From assembly GCA_963665665.1 (NCBI GenBank), contig OY762428.1, positions 192,001-256,000 on the forward strand: a DNA stretch of 64,000 nucleotides, given 5' to 3'. The position numbers and the translations under genes were made by a program. The DNA comes from Candidatus Kapaibacterium sp. Lineage in GTDB: Bacteria; Bacteroidota; Ignavibacteria; Kapaibacteriales; UBA2268. The notes under the pieces are model-generated. The model did not search any database. It saw only the letters and a program-made list of their open reading frames with translations, and was not told the origin of the DNA. Positions 16,270-44,594 of this stretch are shown one piece after another (positions within the stretch are counted from its first letter, which is position 1; every line of letters starts with the position of its first letter).

Positions 16270-18432
16270 CTACCTCCCCAGCTTTGCCTTTAAATTGGCT
16301 GGTAAAGCTCCTCCAATAGCTTTAAATTTATCGGCATAGTTATTCGCCTTTCCTGTCTGGCCTCTTTGGATGTAAAATGCTATAATGTTCTCGTACGCCG
16401 GGGCATCTGTAGGAAAAAGTTTAATAATATTTTCCAGGTTTTTAAGCGCTTCATTTTTTCGTCCCATTTTATAGAGAATTTCCGTTTTCATGTGATAAGG
16501 AACTGAGGTCTCCGGGAATACTTCAACCATAATATCAGTCAGATCAAGCGCCTGCCTGAACATATTTTTTCCAGTAAGCAGATCAAGTTGAGAATAAACA
16601 ATATCTATGATATTCGCCTGCGTCCTGTTCGCCGAAACCAGCTCCCGGAAATATTCTTCTGCTTTTTTATCATCGCCCTTATAGAAGTTTAGCGTTATTA
16701 ATTGAGGATAAACAGACCATGCATCGGATTTTATTTTCCTGATATTTTCATATTGTTCGATTGCTTTATCATATTCCTTTAGTTTCGCAAAATATATACC
16801 GCTTTTCAAATGCCATTTTACCAGATTCTCTTCATCAGCAGAATTGAGAAGCGGCCTTTCTTCTTTCGCGTAATCAGGATTATCAGGTACGGAAGGCCCA
16901 CCCGTAAGAATTATTCCCATCCTGTCGGTATCAAAAATATCTCCTGAAGCAACAAGCCTTACTTCATCATAGAATTTTGACATTTCCGGGTCTGCTATTT
17001 CATTTCTACCATCATGTATGCTCTCATAGTAGCCTAATGGTAATGAGCGCGACAGGTGCCCCGCCATAAGAATTTTAGAGCTATCCCTGATCGTCATTGG
17101 TAAGTGCGAAAGCACAGGGTCGCAAAGGGCGTAATAATCAATAATTTTCTTCTCAAACCCGGCATAATAGCCAAACATACCAACAGCACCGATAACATAG
17201 ACATCATATTCTGATTCTGATGAGGCTTTTCCCATTTGCGCCCACAGCATATCCGGCTCTCCCCTGCCGGATTTCAAAACAGGGATCAAACCGTTATACT
17301 GGTAAAAAAAAGCTCTTTCATCGCTAATTCCGTCTTCGTTTATATGATTTGTTAAAAGCGGAGAATTGCCCTTGCCATAGCCTGGCCCGGACAATATCGG
17401 AGGAGTATTTGAAATCAATATGGTGATTAATAATATTCCTGCCGGCAGAACATACTGGTATTTTAAAATTTTAACCGGAAGTTTAATATTCGAGTTGAGT
17501 AAAATCAGGACTGACATTAAAAACGGAACTGAGAAAAACCTGCCGGCCATAAAATCACCGCCGATATAAAATATATAGATCATGTATAATGCAATTCCTG
17601 CGCCAAGCAGCCCGATTTCGGATTTCCTGTTTTTTATTAGAGCTTTTATTGAAAAAACAACTATGCTAAAAATTGTTAGTAAGGTAACTGGATCGTTTAT
17701 CAACGATTCTTTAAAATAGGCAAAGGCCACCAGGATTTTCCACGAAAATTCAGTATCGCCGCCCATTTTCGCTATTGCTGTATTCGGGAAAAATGAGCCG
17801 TAGTAGATCAGGGCAAATAATTCCCAGATAATCAAAGGCAGAAATGCAATAATGATCCTGCCAATATATTTGATTGATAAATTATCCCTGATTTTCAGGG
17901 CAAGGAACGGTAAAAATAGTAAAATAAGGTCAGGCCGGTTCAACGCGATCAAAGAAATCAGCAGAAAAGACCAAATATCCTTATTACTGGTATCCGCGCT
18001 GAAACGAATATAAAAGAACAGCGCCATAAGAAAATAGCTGAGAGGATTTTCAAGCCCGGAAGCTGAATACTCGATAAATGACCTTGATGAGATTAAAATC
18101 GCAAAGGCAATAATTGTGAGTGGAAGCCCGGATTTATTCCTGCCCGCAGCAAGCAAAACTGCTCCGAGGGAAAGGATGCCTGAAAAAATGATAGTAGTAA
18201 AATATGGCTCGCCGCTAATAAACTGCAATGGTATATTCACAAGCATCCATAGCGGATGAGTATAGACCTGCACCCTTTCGAATATATTCCACCTTAGCCC
18301 GAATCCGTTAAGGAAATTATCGATAACCCGGAATGTGATATACGCATCGTCATTGACGTAGGCATTCATGATGAAAAGGTATATGAATATAATTGAAGCG
18401 GCAATTAAAAAATAATTCTGCTTTGTTCTCAT
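16270..18432 (-). CDS. GT-C type polytopic membrane glycosyltransferase (AftB/arabinofuranosyltransferase-like) with C-terminal TPR region
   Basis: DDAYITFR..DN...G.GL.WN..ERVQ.YTHPLW, SGLENPL, YYG..FPNTA.AK, GGDFM.GRF motifs; about 10 TM helices; helical TPR-like tail (YDKAIEQY, EALKNLE). Confidence 0.72.
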   Translation of the reverse strand: MRTKQNYFLIAASIIFIYLFIMNAYVNDDAYITFRVIDNFLNGFGLRWNIFERVQVYTHPLWMLVNIPLQFISGEPYFTTIIFSGILSLGAVLLAAGRNKSGLPLTIIAFAILISSRSFIEYSASGLENPLSYFLMALFFYIRFSADTSNKDIWSFLLISLIALNRPDLILLFLPFLALKIRDNLSIKYIGRIIIAFLPLIIWELFALIYYGSFFPNTAIAKMGGDTEFSWKILVAFAYFKESLINDPVTLLTIFSIVVFSIKALIKNRKSEIGLLGAGIALYMIYIFYIGGDFMAGRFFSVPFLMSVLILLNSNIKLPVKILKYQYVLPAGILLITILISNTPPILSGPGYGKGNSPLLTNHINEDGISDERAFFYQYNGLIPVLKSGRGEPDMLWAQMGKASSESEYDVYVIGAVGMFGYYAGFEKKIIDYYALCDPVLSHLPMTIRDSSKILMAGHLSRSLPLGYYESIHDGRNEIADPEMSKFYDEVRLVASGDIFDTDRMGIILTGGPSVPDNPDYAKEERPLLNSADEENLVKWHLKSGIYFAKLKEYDKAIEQYENIRKIKSDAWSVYPQLITLNFYKGDDKKAEEYFRELVSANRTQANIIDIVYSQLDLLTGKNMFRQALDLTDIMVEVFPETSVPYHMKTEILYKMGRKNEALKNLENIIKLFPTDAPAYENIIAFYIQRGQTGKANNYADKFKAIGGALPANLKAKLGR

Positions 18433-19163: not shown

Positions 19164-20492
19164 TTAACCGTAAACCAGGTTGTCGGCGGTATTTCTTCTT
19201 CCATGGACAACATTAGGGGCCTGGTACTGACGCTTTTCTTTAACTGCTTTTTCAAATTCATCGCGGAATTTGGTAACAAATCCGCGAATCGGCCATGCGG
19301 CAGCATCACCGAGGGCGCAAACTGTGTTGCCTTCAATATTGTTGCATATATCCACCAGCAGGTCAAGGTCTTTCATTGTTCCCTCGCCGGCAGCAATGCG
19401 TTTCAGAATTTTCTCCATCCATCCGCAACCCTCGCGGCATGGTGTGCACTGGCCGCATGATTCATGATGATAGAAATGCATAATCCTGAGAGTGATCTTT
19501 ACAAGGTCGGTATCTTCGTCCATAACCATTACGCCGCCCGTTCCAATATGAGTACCGAGAGGCTTTAAGGATTCCTCATCCATTCTCACGCCTTCGATCT
19601 CGTCGCCGCGCAGCGGAGGCATTGATGAACCGCCCGGAATGATAGCTTTAATCTTTTTATCTCCTCTGACTCCGCCACAAACATCATAAATAATATCAGT
19701 TAGCAAAGTTCCTGTGGGTAACTCATATACACCGGGTTTATTCACGTGCCCGCTAATTCCATAAAGCAGCGTTCCGGGATGCCCTTCGGCTCCTATCTTT
19801 GAGTAAGCCTCGCCACCCATTTTCAATATTTTCGGAACTGTTGCGATAGATTCTACGTTGTTAACCGTTGTCGGACAATTCCAGAGACCAGCCTGAGCAG
19901 GGAACGGAGGTTTGAACCTCGGGTATCCGCGCTTGCCTTCTATCGAGTTCATCAGAGATGTTTCCTCGCCGCATATATAAGCTCCGGCCCCCTTGTGGGT
20001 GTAAATATCTATCGAATAGTCGCATCCGTAAGTTTCCTTCATTTTCGGGCCGATAAGTCCGCGCTCGTAAGCGTCATCAATGGCCTGCTGCATCAGGTTT
20101 ATCCATTTGTGGTACTCGCCCCTGATATAAATATAGGCAGCTTTTATACCCATGGCATAGCCGGCAATCATTATCCCCTCGATAAGCTGATGGGGATTGT
20201 ATTCAAATATCTGCCTGTCCTTGAACGAACCCGGTTCGGATTCGTCGCCGTTCACGGCAAGGTATTTGGGTTTTGAATCATCCTTTGGCATGAAGGACCA
20301 TTTCAGGCCGGTCGGGAAAGCAGCCCCGCCGCGCCCGCGCAGTCCGGATTTTTTAACCTCGTTGATTATATCATCCTGAGAAAGCTTTATAGCTTTCTTA
20401 AATTCTTCATAGCCGCCATTGGCAATATAAACATCTAATTTGTGCAGGTCCGGTATATCAGGAAGCAGAATTTTCGGGAAGTCACTAATCAT
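19164..20492 (-). CDS. nuoF: NADH-quinone oxidoreductase subunit F
   Basis: SGLRGRGGAAFPTGLKWSF, NGDESEPGSFKDR, GAGAYICGEETSL, ESCGQCTPCREG, C-terminal VCALGD. ATG 20492 chosen; ORF track runs to TTG 20507. Confidence 0.95.
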   Translation of the reverse strand: MISDFPKILLPDIPDLHKLDVYIANGGYEEFKKAIKLSQDDIINEVKKSGLRGRGGAAFPTGLKWSFMPKDDSKPKYLAVNGDESEPGSFKDRQIFEYNPHQLIEGIMIAGYAMGIKAAYIYIRGEYHKWINLMQQAIDDAYERGLIGPKMKETYGCDYSIDIYTHKGAGAYICGEETSLMNSIEGKRGYPRFKPPFPAQAGLWNCPTTVNNVESIATVPKILKMGGEAYSKIGAEGHPGTLLYGISGHVNKPGVYELPTGTLLTDIIYDVCGGVRGDKKIKAIIPGGSSMPPLRGDEIEGVRMDEESLKPLGTHIGTGGVMVMDEDTDLVKITLRIMHFYHHESCGQCTPCREGCGWMEKILKRIAAGEGTMKDLDLLVDICNNIEGNTVCALGDAAAWPIRGFVTKFRDEFEKAVKEKRQYQAPNVVHGRRNTADNLVYG

Positions 20493-20745
20493 GATTGCCT
20501 TTTTCAAATAGTTTAGATATCAATATATATTAAATTAAAAATTTTAGTTTAATAATCAACGGAAAAAATTATTTAGTACAAAATATGTGGGTTTTATTAT
20601 AAAAAAAGATAAAAATCAGGAATATTTAATCCACACCTTTCAGCAAAATGCCACAACTACGCCACTGTCGATTTGGTCAGATATTGGGAAAAGGAATGCC
20701 TGTTTGCTGAGAAGATTCCCCCGCCGGCCCCGACAAATTCCGGAT

Positions 20746-21498: not shown

Positions 21499-21700
21499 AC
21501 ATAACACCTCCTTCTCCGGCTCTTACCCCCCGTTCTTCCACCCCAATGAACAGGCCGCCGGCCTTAATTCCCTATCCTGTGGTTTCAATGAATTGGATAA
21601 ATCCCTTAACCCAACGCTGTTTTGAACCAGAATCCTGATGTTTGGTCTAATTGCCTTGTTGGCAGGGCTTTAAACTGCCCTGGCCGGAGGTATTGAACTA

Positions 21701-21994
21701 CTGTTTGGCCTTATTGTAGTGAAATTTGGCCTTATTGAGGACTTGTTTAGCCTTATTGAGGACTTGTTTGGCCTTACTGAGGACTTGTTTGACCTTATTG
21801 AGGTCTTGTTTGGCCTTACTGAGGTCTTGGTTGACCTTACTGAGGTCTTGTTTGACCTTACTGAGGTCTTGTTTGACCTTACTGAGGTCTTGTTTGGCCT
21901 TACTGAGGACTTGTTTAGCCTTACTGAGGACTTGTTTAGCCTTATTGAGGTCTTGTTTGGCCTTACTGAGGACTTGTTTGACCTTATTGAGGTT
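21701..21994. repeat. 21-bp tandem array, 14 units, consensus TTGTTT(GG/AG/GA)CCTTA(C/T)TGAGG(A/T)C
   Basis: Units read every 21 bp from 21701 to 21974 with no indels. Confidence 0.97.
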
Positions 21995-21995
21995 A

Positions 21996-22492
21996 CTCAT
22001 TATCTTCAAACAAGGCATCATTATCTTCAAACAAGGCAGCAATGACTCCGAACAAGGCGTCAATGACTTCAACCAAGGCATCAATGACTCCGACCAAGGC
22101 GTCAATAACTCCGACCAAGGCAGCAATAACTCCAAACAAGGCAGCAATGACTTCAACCAAGGCATCAATAAAGCAAAACATTGGTTCAATAGTATCGACC
22201 AAGGCAGCAATAAAGCAAAACATTGGTTCAATAGTATCGACCAAGGCAGCAATAAAGCAAAACATTGCTGCAATGGCATCGACCCCTCCCAAACCCTCCC
22301 CGAAGGAGAGGGCTTTGAAGAAGAATAAGGCGGCAATAGGTTAAACCAAGGCGGCAATGACTTCGACCCCTCCCAAACCCTCCCCGAAGGGGAGGGCTTT
22401 GAAGAAGAATAAGGCGGCAATGGATTCGAACAAGGCAGCAATAGGTTAAAACTTTGGTTCAATAGTGTCGACCATCGGTGCATTACCATAGA
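21996..22492. repeat. 21-bp tandem array, consensus (A/G)(G/T)CAAT(G/A)ACT(C/T)C(G/A)A(A/C)CAAGGC, with two in-phase hairpin insertions
   Basis: 13 units 21996-22268, then 63-bp units at 22269 and 22353 carrying CCCTCCCCGAAGG(A/G)GAGGG, and 21-bp units at 22332, 22416, 22437 and 22458. Confidence 0.93.
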
Positions 22493-22494
22493 CT

Positions 22495-22696
22495 CTTCCT
22501 ACTTCCCCCCGGCCCCCTCCTTCGGAAGGAGGGGGAGTTAATCTTATGATATTTAACTTCTTATCCCCTCCTCGGGGAGGAGGGGAATACAGGGGTGGTT
22601 TTCTTGCTTTGCTTCCGGACATTGGTGCTATGCCGCTGCCTCTTCCTACCTCACCCCCACTTCCTACTTCCCAAAGAGGAATGGGTTTGGGGAGGT
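22495..22696. repeat. Cluster of C/G-rich REP-like hairpins
   Basis: CCCCCTCCTTCGGAAGGAGGGGG (about 22514-22536), TCCCCTCCTCGGGGAGGAGGGGA (about 22564-22587), and CTTCCTACYTC motifs also found at 44595. Confidence 0.75.
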
Positions 22697-22868: not shown

Positions 22869-23657
22869 TCAAGCTTTCGGAGGACTCCAGCCTTTTCTTT
22901 TCCAATGAATAAGTTCGATATCAACCGACCCGACTATTACTTCCATTGTTGCTTTAATCGGCACCCTTGCATCATCATCGCTGAACCATCCCTCAAAATA
23001 ACCGTTCAGTCCATAGATACCTTCCCAAAGTGCTTTTCCGTCAAAATATTTAGTCTTGATCCCGTAGTCAACAGCATCAATTTCCACTTCTTCTCTTTTG
23101 TCCTGGAAATTTATTATGGTGTATGCTGTATCTACTCCCATAAAGGTAGGAACTTTGATAGATTTCTCCAGAAAAGAATATTGCCTTGAAAGGAAGAAAA
23201 GCGACATTCCGTCATTCCATTTGCTGTTTGTTTTAATCGAATCCCTGGATTTCAGTTTTTTATTTTCCCAGGTTTCAAAACGGATACTGCTGTTAGTATT
23301 ATCGAAATCAATTTCCTGATACTCCCATGTATCGCTCATAAATTTGGTATTTCCCTGGAAACGATAGGAGTATGACAGCCCCGGCGACATCCAGCTTTTA
23401 AATATTGCTTTAAGCCCTACGAAGGGGATTCCGTCATTTGAAGTCATATAGGCTTTTGTGCGTATTGCCCTGTTGCCATCAAAAGCTGTATCAGCTTCGG
23501 TAATTACTTTTATTGTTCCAAGGCTGAATCCCATGTATGAAACCCTGTAAACCAGTTCTTCCCCAACCTGAAGTATAGTTTCCGCTGCTACCGATCTTGC
23601 CCCGGTAATTAGTAATAATATCAGTATAAATCTACTTAAACGCAGTATCATTTTCAT
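22869..23657 (-). CDS. DUF3108 domain-containing protein
   Basis: Signal peptide, GEELVYRVSY.G..LG, WFSDDDARVP.K...V.VGSV..EL motif. Confidence 0.8.
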   Translation of the reverse strand: MKMILRLSRFILILLLITGARSVAAETILQVGEELVYRVSYMGFSLGTIKVITEADTAFDGNRAIRTKAYMTSNDGIPFVGLKAIFKSWMSPGLSYSYRFQGNTKFMSDTWEYQEIDFDNTNSSIRFETWENKKLKSRDSIKTNSKWNDGMSLFFLSRQYSFLEKSIKVPTFMGVDTAYTIINFQDKREEVEIDAVDYGIKTKYFDGKALWEGIYGLNGYFEGWFSDDDARVPIKATMEVIVGSVDIELIHWKRKGWSPPKA

Positions 23658-43377: not shown

Positions 43378-43701
43378 AAGATAATCCGCTATCTTCGCTT
43401 ATAAACCTTTTAAAATATGATAATCCGAAACAATAATTCCGTCGCGGCAAAGCGCCCGGGGCATTTCCGCCCCCGTCCGATGGAAATTATGGGCCTTTGG
43501 ATTCTCAATATTGCCGGGCATAGCAAACTTCATTAATTTTTAAATAAATATTCACCCGGCAAAAGCGATTACCGGCACTTTCGGATAGAAACAGCAATTG
43601 ATAAAATGGATCGACAGGACTAATAGAACGAAATTCAATATCAAAAAAGTAAATTTCTGTGTTTTCTGAGTAAAATTTTACCTGAAAAAATATTTTTGGA
43701 A

Positions 43702-44289
43702 GCACATCCCAACGTTAAGACGGCACATCCCAACGCTAAGACGGCACGCACCAACGTTAAGACGGCACGAACCAACGTTAAGACGGCACATCCCAACGTT
43801 AAGACGACACATACCAAGGCTAAGACGGCACGAACCAAGGCTAAGACGACACAAACCAACGCTAAGACGTAACATACCAAGACTAAGACGTAACATACCA
43901 ACGCTAAGACGGCACATCCCAACGCTAAGATGACACATACCAACGCTAAGACGGCACGAACCAACGCTATGATAACATATATCAGCGATAATCAGGCTCT
44001 GGAGAACGCTCGGAAGGCACGGGGGAATGCTCGGAAAGCTCGGGGGAATGCTCGGGAAGCACGGTGGAAGGCTCGGGAAGCTCGGGGGAACGCTCGGAAA
44101 GCTTGGGGGAACGCTCGGAAAGCTTGGGGGAACGCTCGGAAAGCACGAGGGAAGGCTCGGGAAGCTTGGGGGAACGCTCGGAAAGCTTGGGGGAAGGCTC
44201 GGAAAGCACGAGGGAAGGCTCGGAAAGCACGAGGGAACGCTCGGAAAGCTTGGGGGAATGCTCGGAAAGCTTGGGGGAACGCTCGGAAA
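43702..44289. repeat. Continuous 21-bp-register array of 28 units with two sub-families
   Basis: 13 units of consensus GCACATACCAACGCTAAGACG (43702-43974), one divergent linker unit (43975-43995), 14 units of consensus GCTTGGGGGAACGCTCGGAAA / GCACGAGGGAAGGCTCGGAAA (43996-44289); no indels. Confidence 0.97.
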
Positions 44290-44594
44290 GCATAAAACAG
44301 CGGGTTTCCGGCACAAAAAATTGTTTCCAAAGAACACACCAACGGCATTAAAGCCAATAATATCATACAATTACATTAACAAAAGCCTGTTCAGCAGAAT
44401 TCCTATAGGAGGATGGCCCGCGCCGCCGAAATAAAATTTCAAACAGTGAGAGTTTATTTTACACTTTCTTTAAATATGACGTTGGGATAAATGATTTTTT
44501 GGCATTATATATAGAATAACTTCCGAATATTTGCCGGATTAAGACAGCTTTTATTTGAGAAATCATTCTTTTCGAGAGAAATAGAACAGGCTCC

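What the first reader, a model, noticed from the sequence alone, without database searches (positions are those of the whole stretch)
21701..22268. Back-to-back 21-bp arrays forming an in-register imperfect palindrome of about 570 bp
Seen: the left array read on the minus strand from 21991 is CTCAATAAGGTCAAACAAGTC; the right array on plus from 21996 is CTCATTATCTTCAAACAAGGC (16/21 identical), separated by only GTTA. Both follow NNC AAT NAN NNC RAN CAA GNC, with 14 and 13 units and no indels. Each arm has homogenised separately while retaining shared positions. 21 bp is two B-DNA helical turns. Inference: a divergently oriented, helically phased protein-binding platform (iteron- or centromere-like), or a long periodically bulged RNA hairpin. 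I recognise no named element with this layout; together with 43702-44289 it is the best candidate for an undescribed system here.
Basis: partly seen in the sequence, partly recalled or inferred. Interest (0 to 1): 0.8.

Follow-up and report, generated by a model that had tools for sequence, protein, structure and literature searches.

The report
Gene-less copies of 21-bp lattice cassette
The two mirrored 21-base arrays are the centre of a non-coding element with 53 copies in this bacterial genome that keeps a strict two-helix-turn grid; it likely descends from the arrays that precede an unstudied helical-plus-fibronectin gene family, and likely serves as a phased DNA track for a protein supplied from elsewhere in the genome.

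Summary
The arrays are real: 14 + 13 units, GTTA spacer, arms 63% alike in mirror register (null 43%). They are not unique. They are the centre of a ~1.1-kb non-coding element with 53 intergenic copies, all on one 21-bp grid. Its AT-rich core shows 234 variant alleles and no indel in 15 copies.

The arrays belong with an unnamed helical-bundle + FN3 gene family. In other genomes 63 of 81 members have a period-21 array upstream (5 of 81 downstream), with unrelated units and, on average, mirror-related neighbouring blocks. The window's second array pair (43702-44291) still carries such a gene's leader, ATG and decayed first codons; the A/B element's link is weaker (core homology). Gene-less arrays recur in a second genome.

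Best reading: a phase-locked dsDNA scaffold detached from its gene and coated in trans. Binding is untested, and the protein is acidic. Coding, MITE and hairpin readings fail or lack support.

The scan had already noted the repeat family here and the gene-array module in other genomes. The link between them was in none of the notes I saw. My paper searches found no description.

The parts
21508..21697 (.). Conserved 'tail': old, degenerate 21-bp rows in register with the left arm; shared by 53 copies
   Evidence: grid; mean 28 substitutions per pair in 181 bp, about 0 gap events
21698..21991 (-). Left arm (array A), 14 x 21 bp; every one of the 53 copies has a different string of unit variants
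21992..21995 (.). GTTA junction (mirror axis); 14 of 53 copies carry a ~565-bp AT-rich core here, with the grid kept
21996..22268 (+). Right arm (array B), 13 x 21 bp, mirror-related to A
22269..22495 (+). Degenerate B rows with two 42-bp hairpin inserts (84-bp period) fitted to the grid
22496..22621 (.). End module, 6 grid rows (126 bp) of G/C-rich hairpins; the same module lies in tandem just downstream of a DUF559 gene elsewhere in the genome
20755..21500 (.). Mosaic of multi-copy REP-like palindromes flanking the element; off-grid and indel-tolerant (the family labels for such palindromes are recalled, not tested)
43702..43969 (.). Second element, array C (12.8 x 21 bp)
43996..44291 (.). 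Second element, array D (14.1 x 21 bp); the same unit precedes the intact family gene at G000:2118628
43522..43701 (-). Leader of the lost gene: 127 of 193 identical without gaps to the leader of gene G000:2118628, up to and including the ATG
43459..43521 (-). Decayed 5' remnant (ATG plus about 20 codons) of the helical-bundle + FN3 gene; similarity ends after it
   Evidence: 65/105 across the ATG, 22/105 beyond
19164..20507 (-). Flanking gene, NuoF-like (Complex1_51K, NADH_4Fe-4S); not part of the element
22869..23657 (-). Flanking gene, DUF3108; not part of the element

Best explanation
The two arms are the centre of a non-coding ~1.1-kb element laid on one strict 21-bp grid and present in 53 intergenic copies; it likely descends from the 21-bp arrays that lie upstream of an unnamed helical-bundle + FN3 gene family, after loss of the gene, and likely works as a phased double-stranded DNA track that a protein would coat once every two helical turns, supplied in trans. 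SHOWN: the grid, the copy number, the absence of indels and of coding signal, the gene-array pairing in other genomes, the mirror relation of neighbouring blocks there, and a gene remnant in the window's second element. INFERRED: (1) descent of the A/B element from such a cassette, through its AT core; (2) selection acts on register, not sequence, as expected if a repeating protein step of 21 bp (about 71 A) must stay in phase across both arms; (3) the binder is the family's own product (8 genes in this genome) or a host protein it organises - its long predicted helices of 47 and 57 residues would span about 70-85 A; (4) copies spread and are reshuffled by in-register recombination within REP-like intergenic mosaics, not by a reverse transcriptase or a TIR-reading transposase.
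For: Register: 36 of 44 copies with both ends measure 0 mod 21; in 53 of 53 the B rows lie on the A grid, with (14) or without (39) a core. 15 of 15 AT cores are exactly 565 bp, ~61 substitutions per pair, 234 distinct variant alleles, 0 indels. Off-grid REP modules next door do vary in length (8 length classes among 16 copies; -1 in 8 of 20). Core variability is periodic at 21 (0 of 500 permutations), not at 3 (p=0.67). Gene link: 63 of 81 family genes with readable upstream DNA have a period-21 array upstream, 5 of 81 downstream; 1 of 25 unrelated FN3 loci has one. Units are at chance similarity by ~60% protein identity while the period stays 21. Neighbouring blocks are mirror-related (10.8/21 vs 9.6+-0.23, 0 of 1000 shuffles, 19 pairs), not direct (9.2 vs 9.1). 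The window's second element keeps leader, ATG and decayed first codons. The AT core is homologous to the upstream of the 304-aa paralogues (score 150 vs 76+-10, maximum 104 in 200 shuffles; 6 unrelated AT-rich windows 44-68), and the top 8 ungapped diagonals share one phase mod 21. One A/B copy lies upstream of a family gene. Gene-less multi-block arrays recur in G430. The gene-less genome G393 has no array of 6 or more units in 800 kb sampled. The genes are under purifying selection (38 of 55 variable sites at third positions, 4 copies).
Against: No binding was tested. The proteins are mostly acidic (pI ~4.5-5; P0002 N-domain net -15), unlike typical DNA binders, and no DNA-binding fold was matched (best Z 9.3, generic helical bundles). 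A 10.5-bp one-face signal is inconsistent: FFT z=4.0 but lag-10 autocorrelation z=0.06 and core p=0.36. No common sequence motif among units. The A/B element itself holds no gene remnant, its units match no gene-linked unit of other genomes above 13/21, and in the one copy upstream of a gene the ATG is off-grid (448 bp, 7 mod 21). 18 of 81 genes have no array. Loci come from a limited set of related genomes and are not independent; copies within G000 share history through recombination. The G393 comparison is one genome, partly sampled.
Confidence: 0.5

Rival explanations
1. A selfish or neutral minisatellite-bearing repeat (BrickBuilt/BOX-like). The grid is a by-product of slippage and unequal exchange in 21-bp units, and the gene link is only ancestry.
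For: 53 intergenic copies, leader-repeats-tail layout, enriched between convergent genes (21 of 53, against 220 of 1144 background gaps), not found in 40 relatives. Unit-number changes keep length mod 21 trivially.
Against: Slippage does not explain 0 indels against 234 substitution alleles in an 83% AT core, nor the same period with unrelated units in 63 of 81 gene-linked loci. No terminal inverted repeat (score 14 vs null 13.6).
Confidence: 0.2
2. The arrays are a product rather than a binding site: a ruler-like process tied to the protein copies sequence at a 21-bp offset, turning any nearby DNA into a lattice and erasing out-of-phase indels.
For: Variant alleles match the base 21, 42, 63 or 84 bp away somewhat more often than at other lags in three data sets (core 0.51-0.54 vs 0.46+-0.025; tail 0.39-0.47 vs 0.35+-0.024; gene upstream 0.48-0.54 vs 0.45+-0.034). 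Units turn over very fast (10/21 at 87% protein identity).
Against: The excess is small and is also expected from phase-dependent base preference. No catalytic fold was found, and no RVT_1 reverse transcriptase in G000 or G430.
Confidence: 0.15
3. A transcribed repeat RNA or long bulged hairpin, perhaps bound by the protein.
For: Folds at -198 kcal/mol, z=-7 against dinucleotide shuffles; gene-linked arrays lie 70-750 bp upstream of the start, where a leader could include them.
Against: The energy is matched by unit-order shuffles (-201) and reached by 1 of 12 column-permuted controls. Left-arm units differ between subfamilies while the right arm stays similar. Most gene-linked arrays are a single arm. 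No Rfam match below E 0.2. A period of 21 fits B-DNA (10.5 bp per turn) better than A-form RNA (own knowledge).
Confidence: 0.1
4. The arrays encode small heptad-repeat (coiled-coil) peptides, 7 codons per unit.
For: Open frames cross the window's arms (e.g. 21698-22489 minus, 263 aa) and hit coiled-coil Pfam families below their cut-offs.
Against: In 57 gene-linked arrays the open frames are at chance level (1.49 and 1.42 per strand vs 1.36), and 4 arrays have no open frame in six. No period-3 variability. Stops in the tail rows. Length changes come in 21s, not 3s.
Confidence: 0.05

Closest known systems
BrickBuilt MITE/minisatellite of Porphyromonas gingivalis (PMC4596501; abstract and first part of section 7 read)
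   Same: Species-restricted, multi-copy, always intergenic, tandem unspaced units between a leader and a tail.
   Different: BrickBuilt has 23-nt units in one orientation and IS5-like terminal inverted repeats. Here: period 21, mirrored arms, no TIR, one grid through tail, core and hairpins, and a cognate gene family.
Plasmid iteron arrays and parC/tubC centromeres with their cognate binding protein (recalled, not read; search returned 0 papers)
   Same: Phased direct repeats near two helical turns, upstream of a gene, sometimes beside AT-rich DNA.
   Different: Chromosomal, dozens of gene-less copies, unit sequence unconserved, and the partner is an acidic helical bundle + FN3 with no Rep, ParB or ribbon-helix-helix match.
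Intergenic TAACTGA heptamer repeats of Beggiatoaceae, Cyanobacteria and Bacteroidetes (PMC4679880; abstract only)
   Same: Dispersed intergenic tandem repeats of unknown function, proposed to be protein-binding sites.
   Different: Fixed 7-mer sequence there. Here the period is fixed and the sequence free, with no 7-bp sub-repeat in units (lag 7 z=-0.6).
NCBIfam NF052641 'PQLLE family protein'
   Same: Weak similarity to the N-terminal domain: 9 of 14 members, best E 1e-9.
   Different: All below the curated cut-off (34 vs 80 bits for P0002). No function given, and no relevant paper among the 5 listed.

Membership tests
MITE (BrickBuilt type) | Multi-copy, intergenic, non-coding | tested here: met
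   53 copies, intergenic; no coding signal
MITE (BrickBuilt type) | Terminal inverted repeats | tested here: not met
   Best local match of left end to reversed right end 7 bp, score 14 vs null 13.6+-2
MITE (BrickBuilt type) | Target-site duplication / empty-site alleles | tested here: inconclusive
   Both ends run into variable REP-like mosaics; no close relative with empty sites
Iteron origin / plasmid centromere | Repeats phased at about two helical turns | tested here: met
   Period 21 throughout
Iteron origin / plasmid centromere | Adjacent Rep/ParA/ParB/ParR gene, one locus per replicon | tested here: not met
   Flanks are NuoF-like and DUF3108 genes; 53 loci with unrelated neighbours
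Iteron origin / plasmid centromere | Cognate protein binds the repeats | not testable with these tools
   Needs binding assays
Iteron origin / plasmid centromere | Cognate protein has a winged-helix or ribbon-helix-helix fold | tested here: inconclusive
   AF2 gives helical bundle + FN3; only generic helical matches, Z up to 9.3
Heptad-repeat protein gene | Open frame above chance and codon-periodic variation | tested here: not met
Known structured RNA (Rfam) | Match to a family model | tested here: not met
   4 matches, E 0.21-4.4, far below gathering scores
Retroelement-derived repeat (retron/DGR/DRT) | Reverse transcriptase in the genome | tested here: not met
   PF00078 absent from G000 and G430, present in 3 of 5 genomes searched; divergent RTs outside this model not excluded
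21-bp array + helical/FN3 gene module (noted earlier in this scan, not found in print) | Period-21 non-coding array upstream of a family gene | tested here: met
   63 of 81 in other genomes; in G000 genes at 2118628 and 1352685, degenerate arrays before the 304-aa paralogues
21-bp array + helical/FN3 gene module (noted earlier in this scan, not found in print) | This locus carries the gene or a remnant | tested here: inconclusive
   No gene at 21508-22621; link is through AT-core homology of sister copies; remnant shown for 43459-44291

The most novel reading that the evidence does not exclude
An undescribed bacterial protein-DNA lattice system: a rod-shaped helical-bundle + FN3 protein polymerises on DNA with a 21-bp step, reading geometry rather than sequence. 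It imposes a 'rule of 21' on its tracks, and in this genome dozens of gene-less, mirror-symmetric tracks have spread as landing pads that organise the chromosome or propagate themselves.
Probability: 0.35. Interest if true: 0.9.

Novelty: categorically new. Interest (0 to 1): 0.72.

Why it matters
Non-coding DNA that takes substitutions at about 10% divergence yet no indels, and keeps a two-turn period while its sequence turns over completely, points to a constraint on DNA geometry that the known repeat classes compared here do not show. Tying the orphan repeats to a specific gene family turns an unexplained satellite into a testable pair: one small soluble protein and a defined DNA track. If the protein coats DNA with a 21-bp step it would be a new kind of nucleoprotein filament or nucleoid organiser, and a possible modular DNA scaffold. 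This genome shows the tracks persisting in far more copies (53 + 22) than the genes (8), so any function must act in trans.

Tried and rejected
- Fold search of the N-domain: no specific match among 48,161 chains (best Z 9.3; chemoreceptor McpS/TorS-like bimodular bundles Z 8.3-8.8 over ~185 residues). Foldseek was run on the full-length model only and returned FN3. No useful PDB sequence hit. No Pfam family for the N-domain.
- Expression: no RNA holder listed, so nothing can be said.
- B unit as an amplified piece of the gene's first codons: best site in the 304-aa genes (11.3/21) but no better than top chance sites in other paralogues (13-13.5), and not in register on the best diagonal. Rejected as unproven.
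- Array units as templates for the gene: 13.96 vs 13.89 shuffled, 54 arrays. Rejected.
- Internal palindromy or half-period self-similarity of units: none.
- One-face (10.5-bp) conservation: inconsistent.
- Replichore bias: 22 vs 31, none clear.
- Tail in relatives: 0 of 40.
- Paper searches with no description of the module: 0 papers; 2, unrelated by listing; 25, unrelated by listing of 20; 0; 0; 5, unrelated. The library omits most subscription papers and I read no supplements, so 'not in print' is limited to these searches.

Full report
OBSERVATION. The arrays are as described: 14 left units (21698-21991), GTTA, 13 right units (21996-22268), no indels, 16/21 for the first pair and 63% over 13 pairs, against 43+-4% for column-permuted arms (p=0.0002). 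They lie in a 2.4-kb gap between a NuoF-like gene and a DUF3108 gene, both on the minus strand. Depth in public runs of two samples is about 30-50 times the flank, and the junction 21-mer occurs 6 times in the genome, so this is a real multi-copy element.

THE ELEMENT. Genome-wide, period 21 dominates tandem repeats (288 of 861 TRF rows; 159 of the intergenic rows of at least 100 bp and 4 copies, plus 65 at 42, 63 or 84). The stretch 21500-22620 has about 50-60 homologous loci; 53 carry the tail (mean identity 88.5%). Written in rows of 21, the window's copy is one grid of 54 rows through tail, both arms, the strand flip and inserted hairpins. Of 44 copies with both ends, 36 measure 0 mod 21; the 8 others include two interrupted by a transposase gene and two off by one base. 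In all 53 the B arm lies on the A-arm grid, including 14 copies with an AT-rich core between the arms, and all 53 left arms differ in their string of unit variants. The core is exactly 565 bp in 15 of 15 copies found by its anchors, with about 61 substitutions per pair, 234 distinct variant alleles and no indel. The tails have about 28 substitutions in 181 bp and about 0 gap events per pair. Neighbouring off-grid palindromic modules vary in length. Core variability has period 21 (0 of 500 permutations) and not 3 (p=0.67). Copies recombine, so pairs are not independent; the allele count is the fair figure. There is no terminal inverted repeat, and copies favour convergent gene gaps (21 of 53). 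The tail was not found in 40 relatives.

THE GENE LINK. Clustering neighbours of all arrays showed two homologous unknown genes, members of an 8-copy family in this genome. AlphaFold2 gives two tandem units of a short helix plus a 47- or 57-residue helix, followed by one or two FN3 domains (pLDDT 93; FN3 confirmed). The N-domain has no Pfam family and only a sub-threshold NCBIfam match. It is patchy and often multi-copy: 17 of 151 genomes of the order, up to at least 19 copies. Named records with homologues include Candidatus Kapaibacterium. I examined 90 gene hits outside G000, after dropping one duplicate locus and one weak hit; 9 lacked readable upstream DNA. Of the 81 left, 63 have a period-21 array within 1.2 kb upstream and 5 downstream; 1 of 25 unrelated FN3 loci has one. 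The 18 without include single-copy orthologues of G085, G331 and G006. Units are unrelated between loci and fall to chance similarity by about 60% protein identity. They are non-coding: open frames at chance level in 57 arrays, none in 4. Neighbouring blocks are mirror-related, 10.8/21 against 9.6+-0.23 in 19 pairs, while direct similarity is at chance, so the back-to-back layout recurs in the module.

ORPHANS. The window's second element (arrays at 43702-44291; 22 loci share its leader) aligns without gaps to the leader of gene G000:2118628 (127 of 193), keeps the ATG at 43521 and about 20 decayed codons, then diverges. It is a cassette that lost its gene. For the A/B element the link is indirect. 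The AT core of its sister copies is homologous to the upstream of the six 304-aa paralogues (150 vs 76+-10), with the top 8 ungapped diagonals in one phase mod 21. Those six upstream regions are also gap-free over 705 bp with 47-96 substitutions (selected by ungapped identity). One A/B copy lies upstream of a family gene, though off-grid. In G430, gene-less multi-block arrays related to its gene-linked arrays occur at 3 loci found by search and 2 more gene-less array loci lie in 381 kb of readable random sample; G393, which has no family gene, shows one weak 92-bp hit and no array of 6 or more units in 800 kb. Neither G000 nor G430 has an RVT_1 match.

MECHANISM. Fixed period, free sequence, free orientation and no indels are what selection on helical phase of double-stranded DNA would leave; 21 bp is two turns at 10.5 bp (own knowledge). 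I therefore favour a track coated by a protein with a 21-bp (about 71 A) step. The family's long helices would span about 70-85 A at 1.5 A per residue (inference). Against this, the proteins are mostly acidic, no DNA-binding fold was matched, and a one-face conservation signal is inconsistent. The binder may be a host protein, or the arrays may be the product of a 21-bp ruler process; a small excess of variants matching the base 21-84 bp away fits either. The hairpin energy (-198, z=-7 vs dinucleotide shuffles) is explained by the inverted arms alone. Confidence: lattice 0.5, neutral satellite 0.2, ruler product 0.15, RNA 0.1, peptide 0.05.

COMPARISON AND NOVELTY. It resembles BrickBuilt (PMC4596501, abstract and part of section 7 read) in layout but lacks TIRs, and resembles iterons or centromeres (recalled) in phasing but lacks their genes and single-locus nature. 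Paper searches found no description; subscription papers and supplements were not seen. Within this scan, earlier AI notes had described the repeat family in this genome, including the 21-bp register, and the gene-array module in other genomes. I re-tested both. Function remains untested.

Noticed in passing
window:43459-44291: Second 21-bp element (C/D), 22 loci share its leader; keeps leader, ATG and decayed first codons of the helical+FN3 gene.
   Followed up: yes
window:20755-21500: Mosaic of at least five multi-copy palindromic REP-like modules, 15-100 loci each.
   Followed up: partly
window:18448-18525: Perfect 27-bp repeat, 2.9 copies, just upstream of the gene at 16270-18432.
   Followed up: no
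window:47673-48971: ORF with an HPFYDGNGR motif, Fic-like (label recalled, not tested).
   Followed up: no
G000:C1:1193964, 1732431, 2358300, 2399484, 2666254, 3764863, 5074527: Seven further gene-less AT-rich stretches homologous to the core, several with weak period-21 repeats.
   Followed up: partly
G000:C1:163860-167163 and 4626708-4630010: Two family genes separated from their upstream lattice by an insertion sequence; the copy at 860840 is truncated at about 180 aa.
   Followed up: partly
G000:C1:98470-99774 and 626269-627606: Two near-identical tyrosine-recombinase-like genes (label from the sequence motif, not tested), each just beyond the B end of an element.
   Followed up: no
L013:3983-4384: DUF559 gene followed by tandem copies of the element's 126-bp end module, suggesting where that module came from.
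   Followed up: partly
G000:C1:2119900-2120600: Another repeat mosaic (short purine-rich and ATCCTAT-type units) downstream of the 425-aa family gene; similar units encode N-terminal low-complexity stretches at 92827-96699 and 649385-653356.
   Followed up: no
L050, L051, L052: Family genes in G085, G331 and G006 have no array; possibly domesticated single-locus orthologues.
   Followed up: partly
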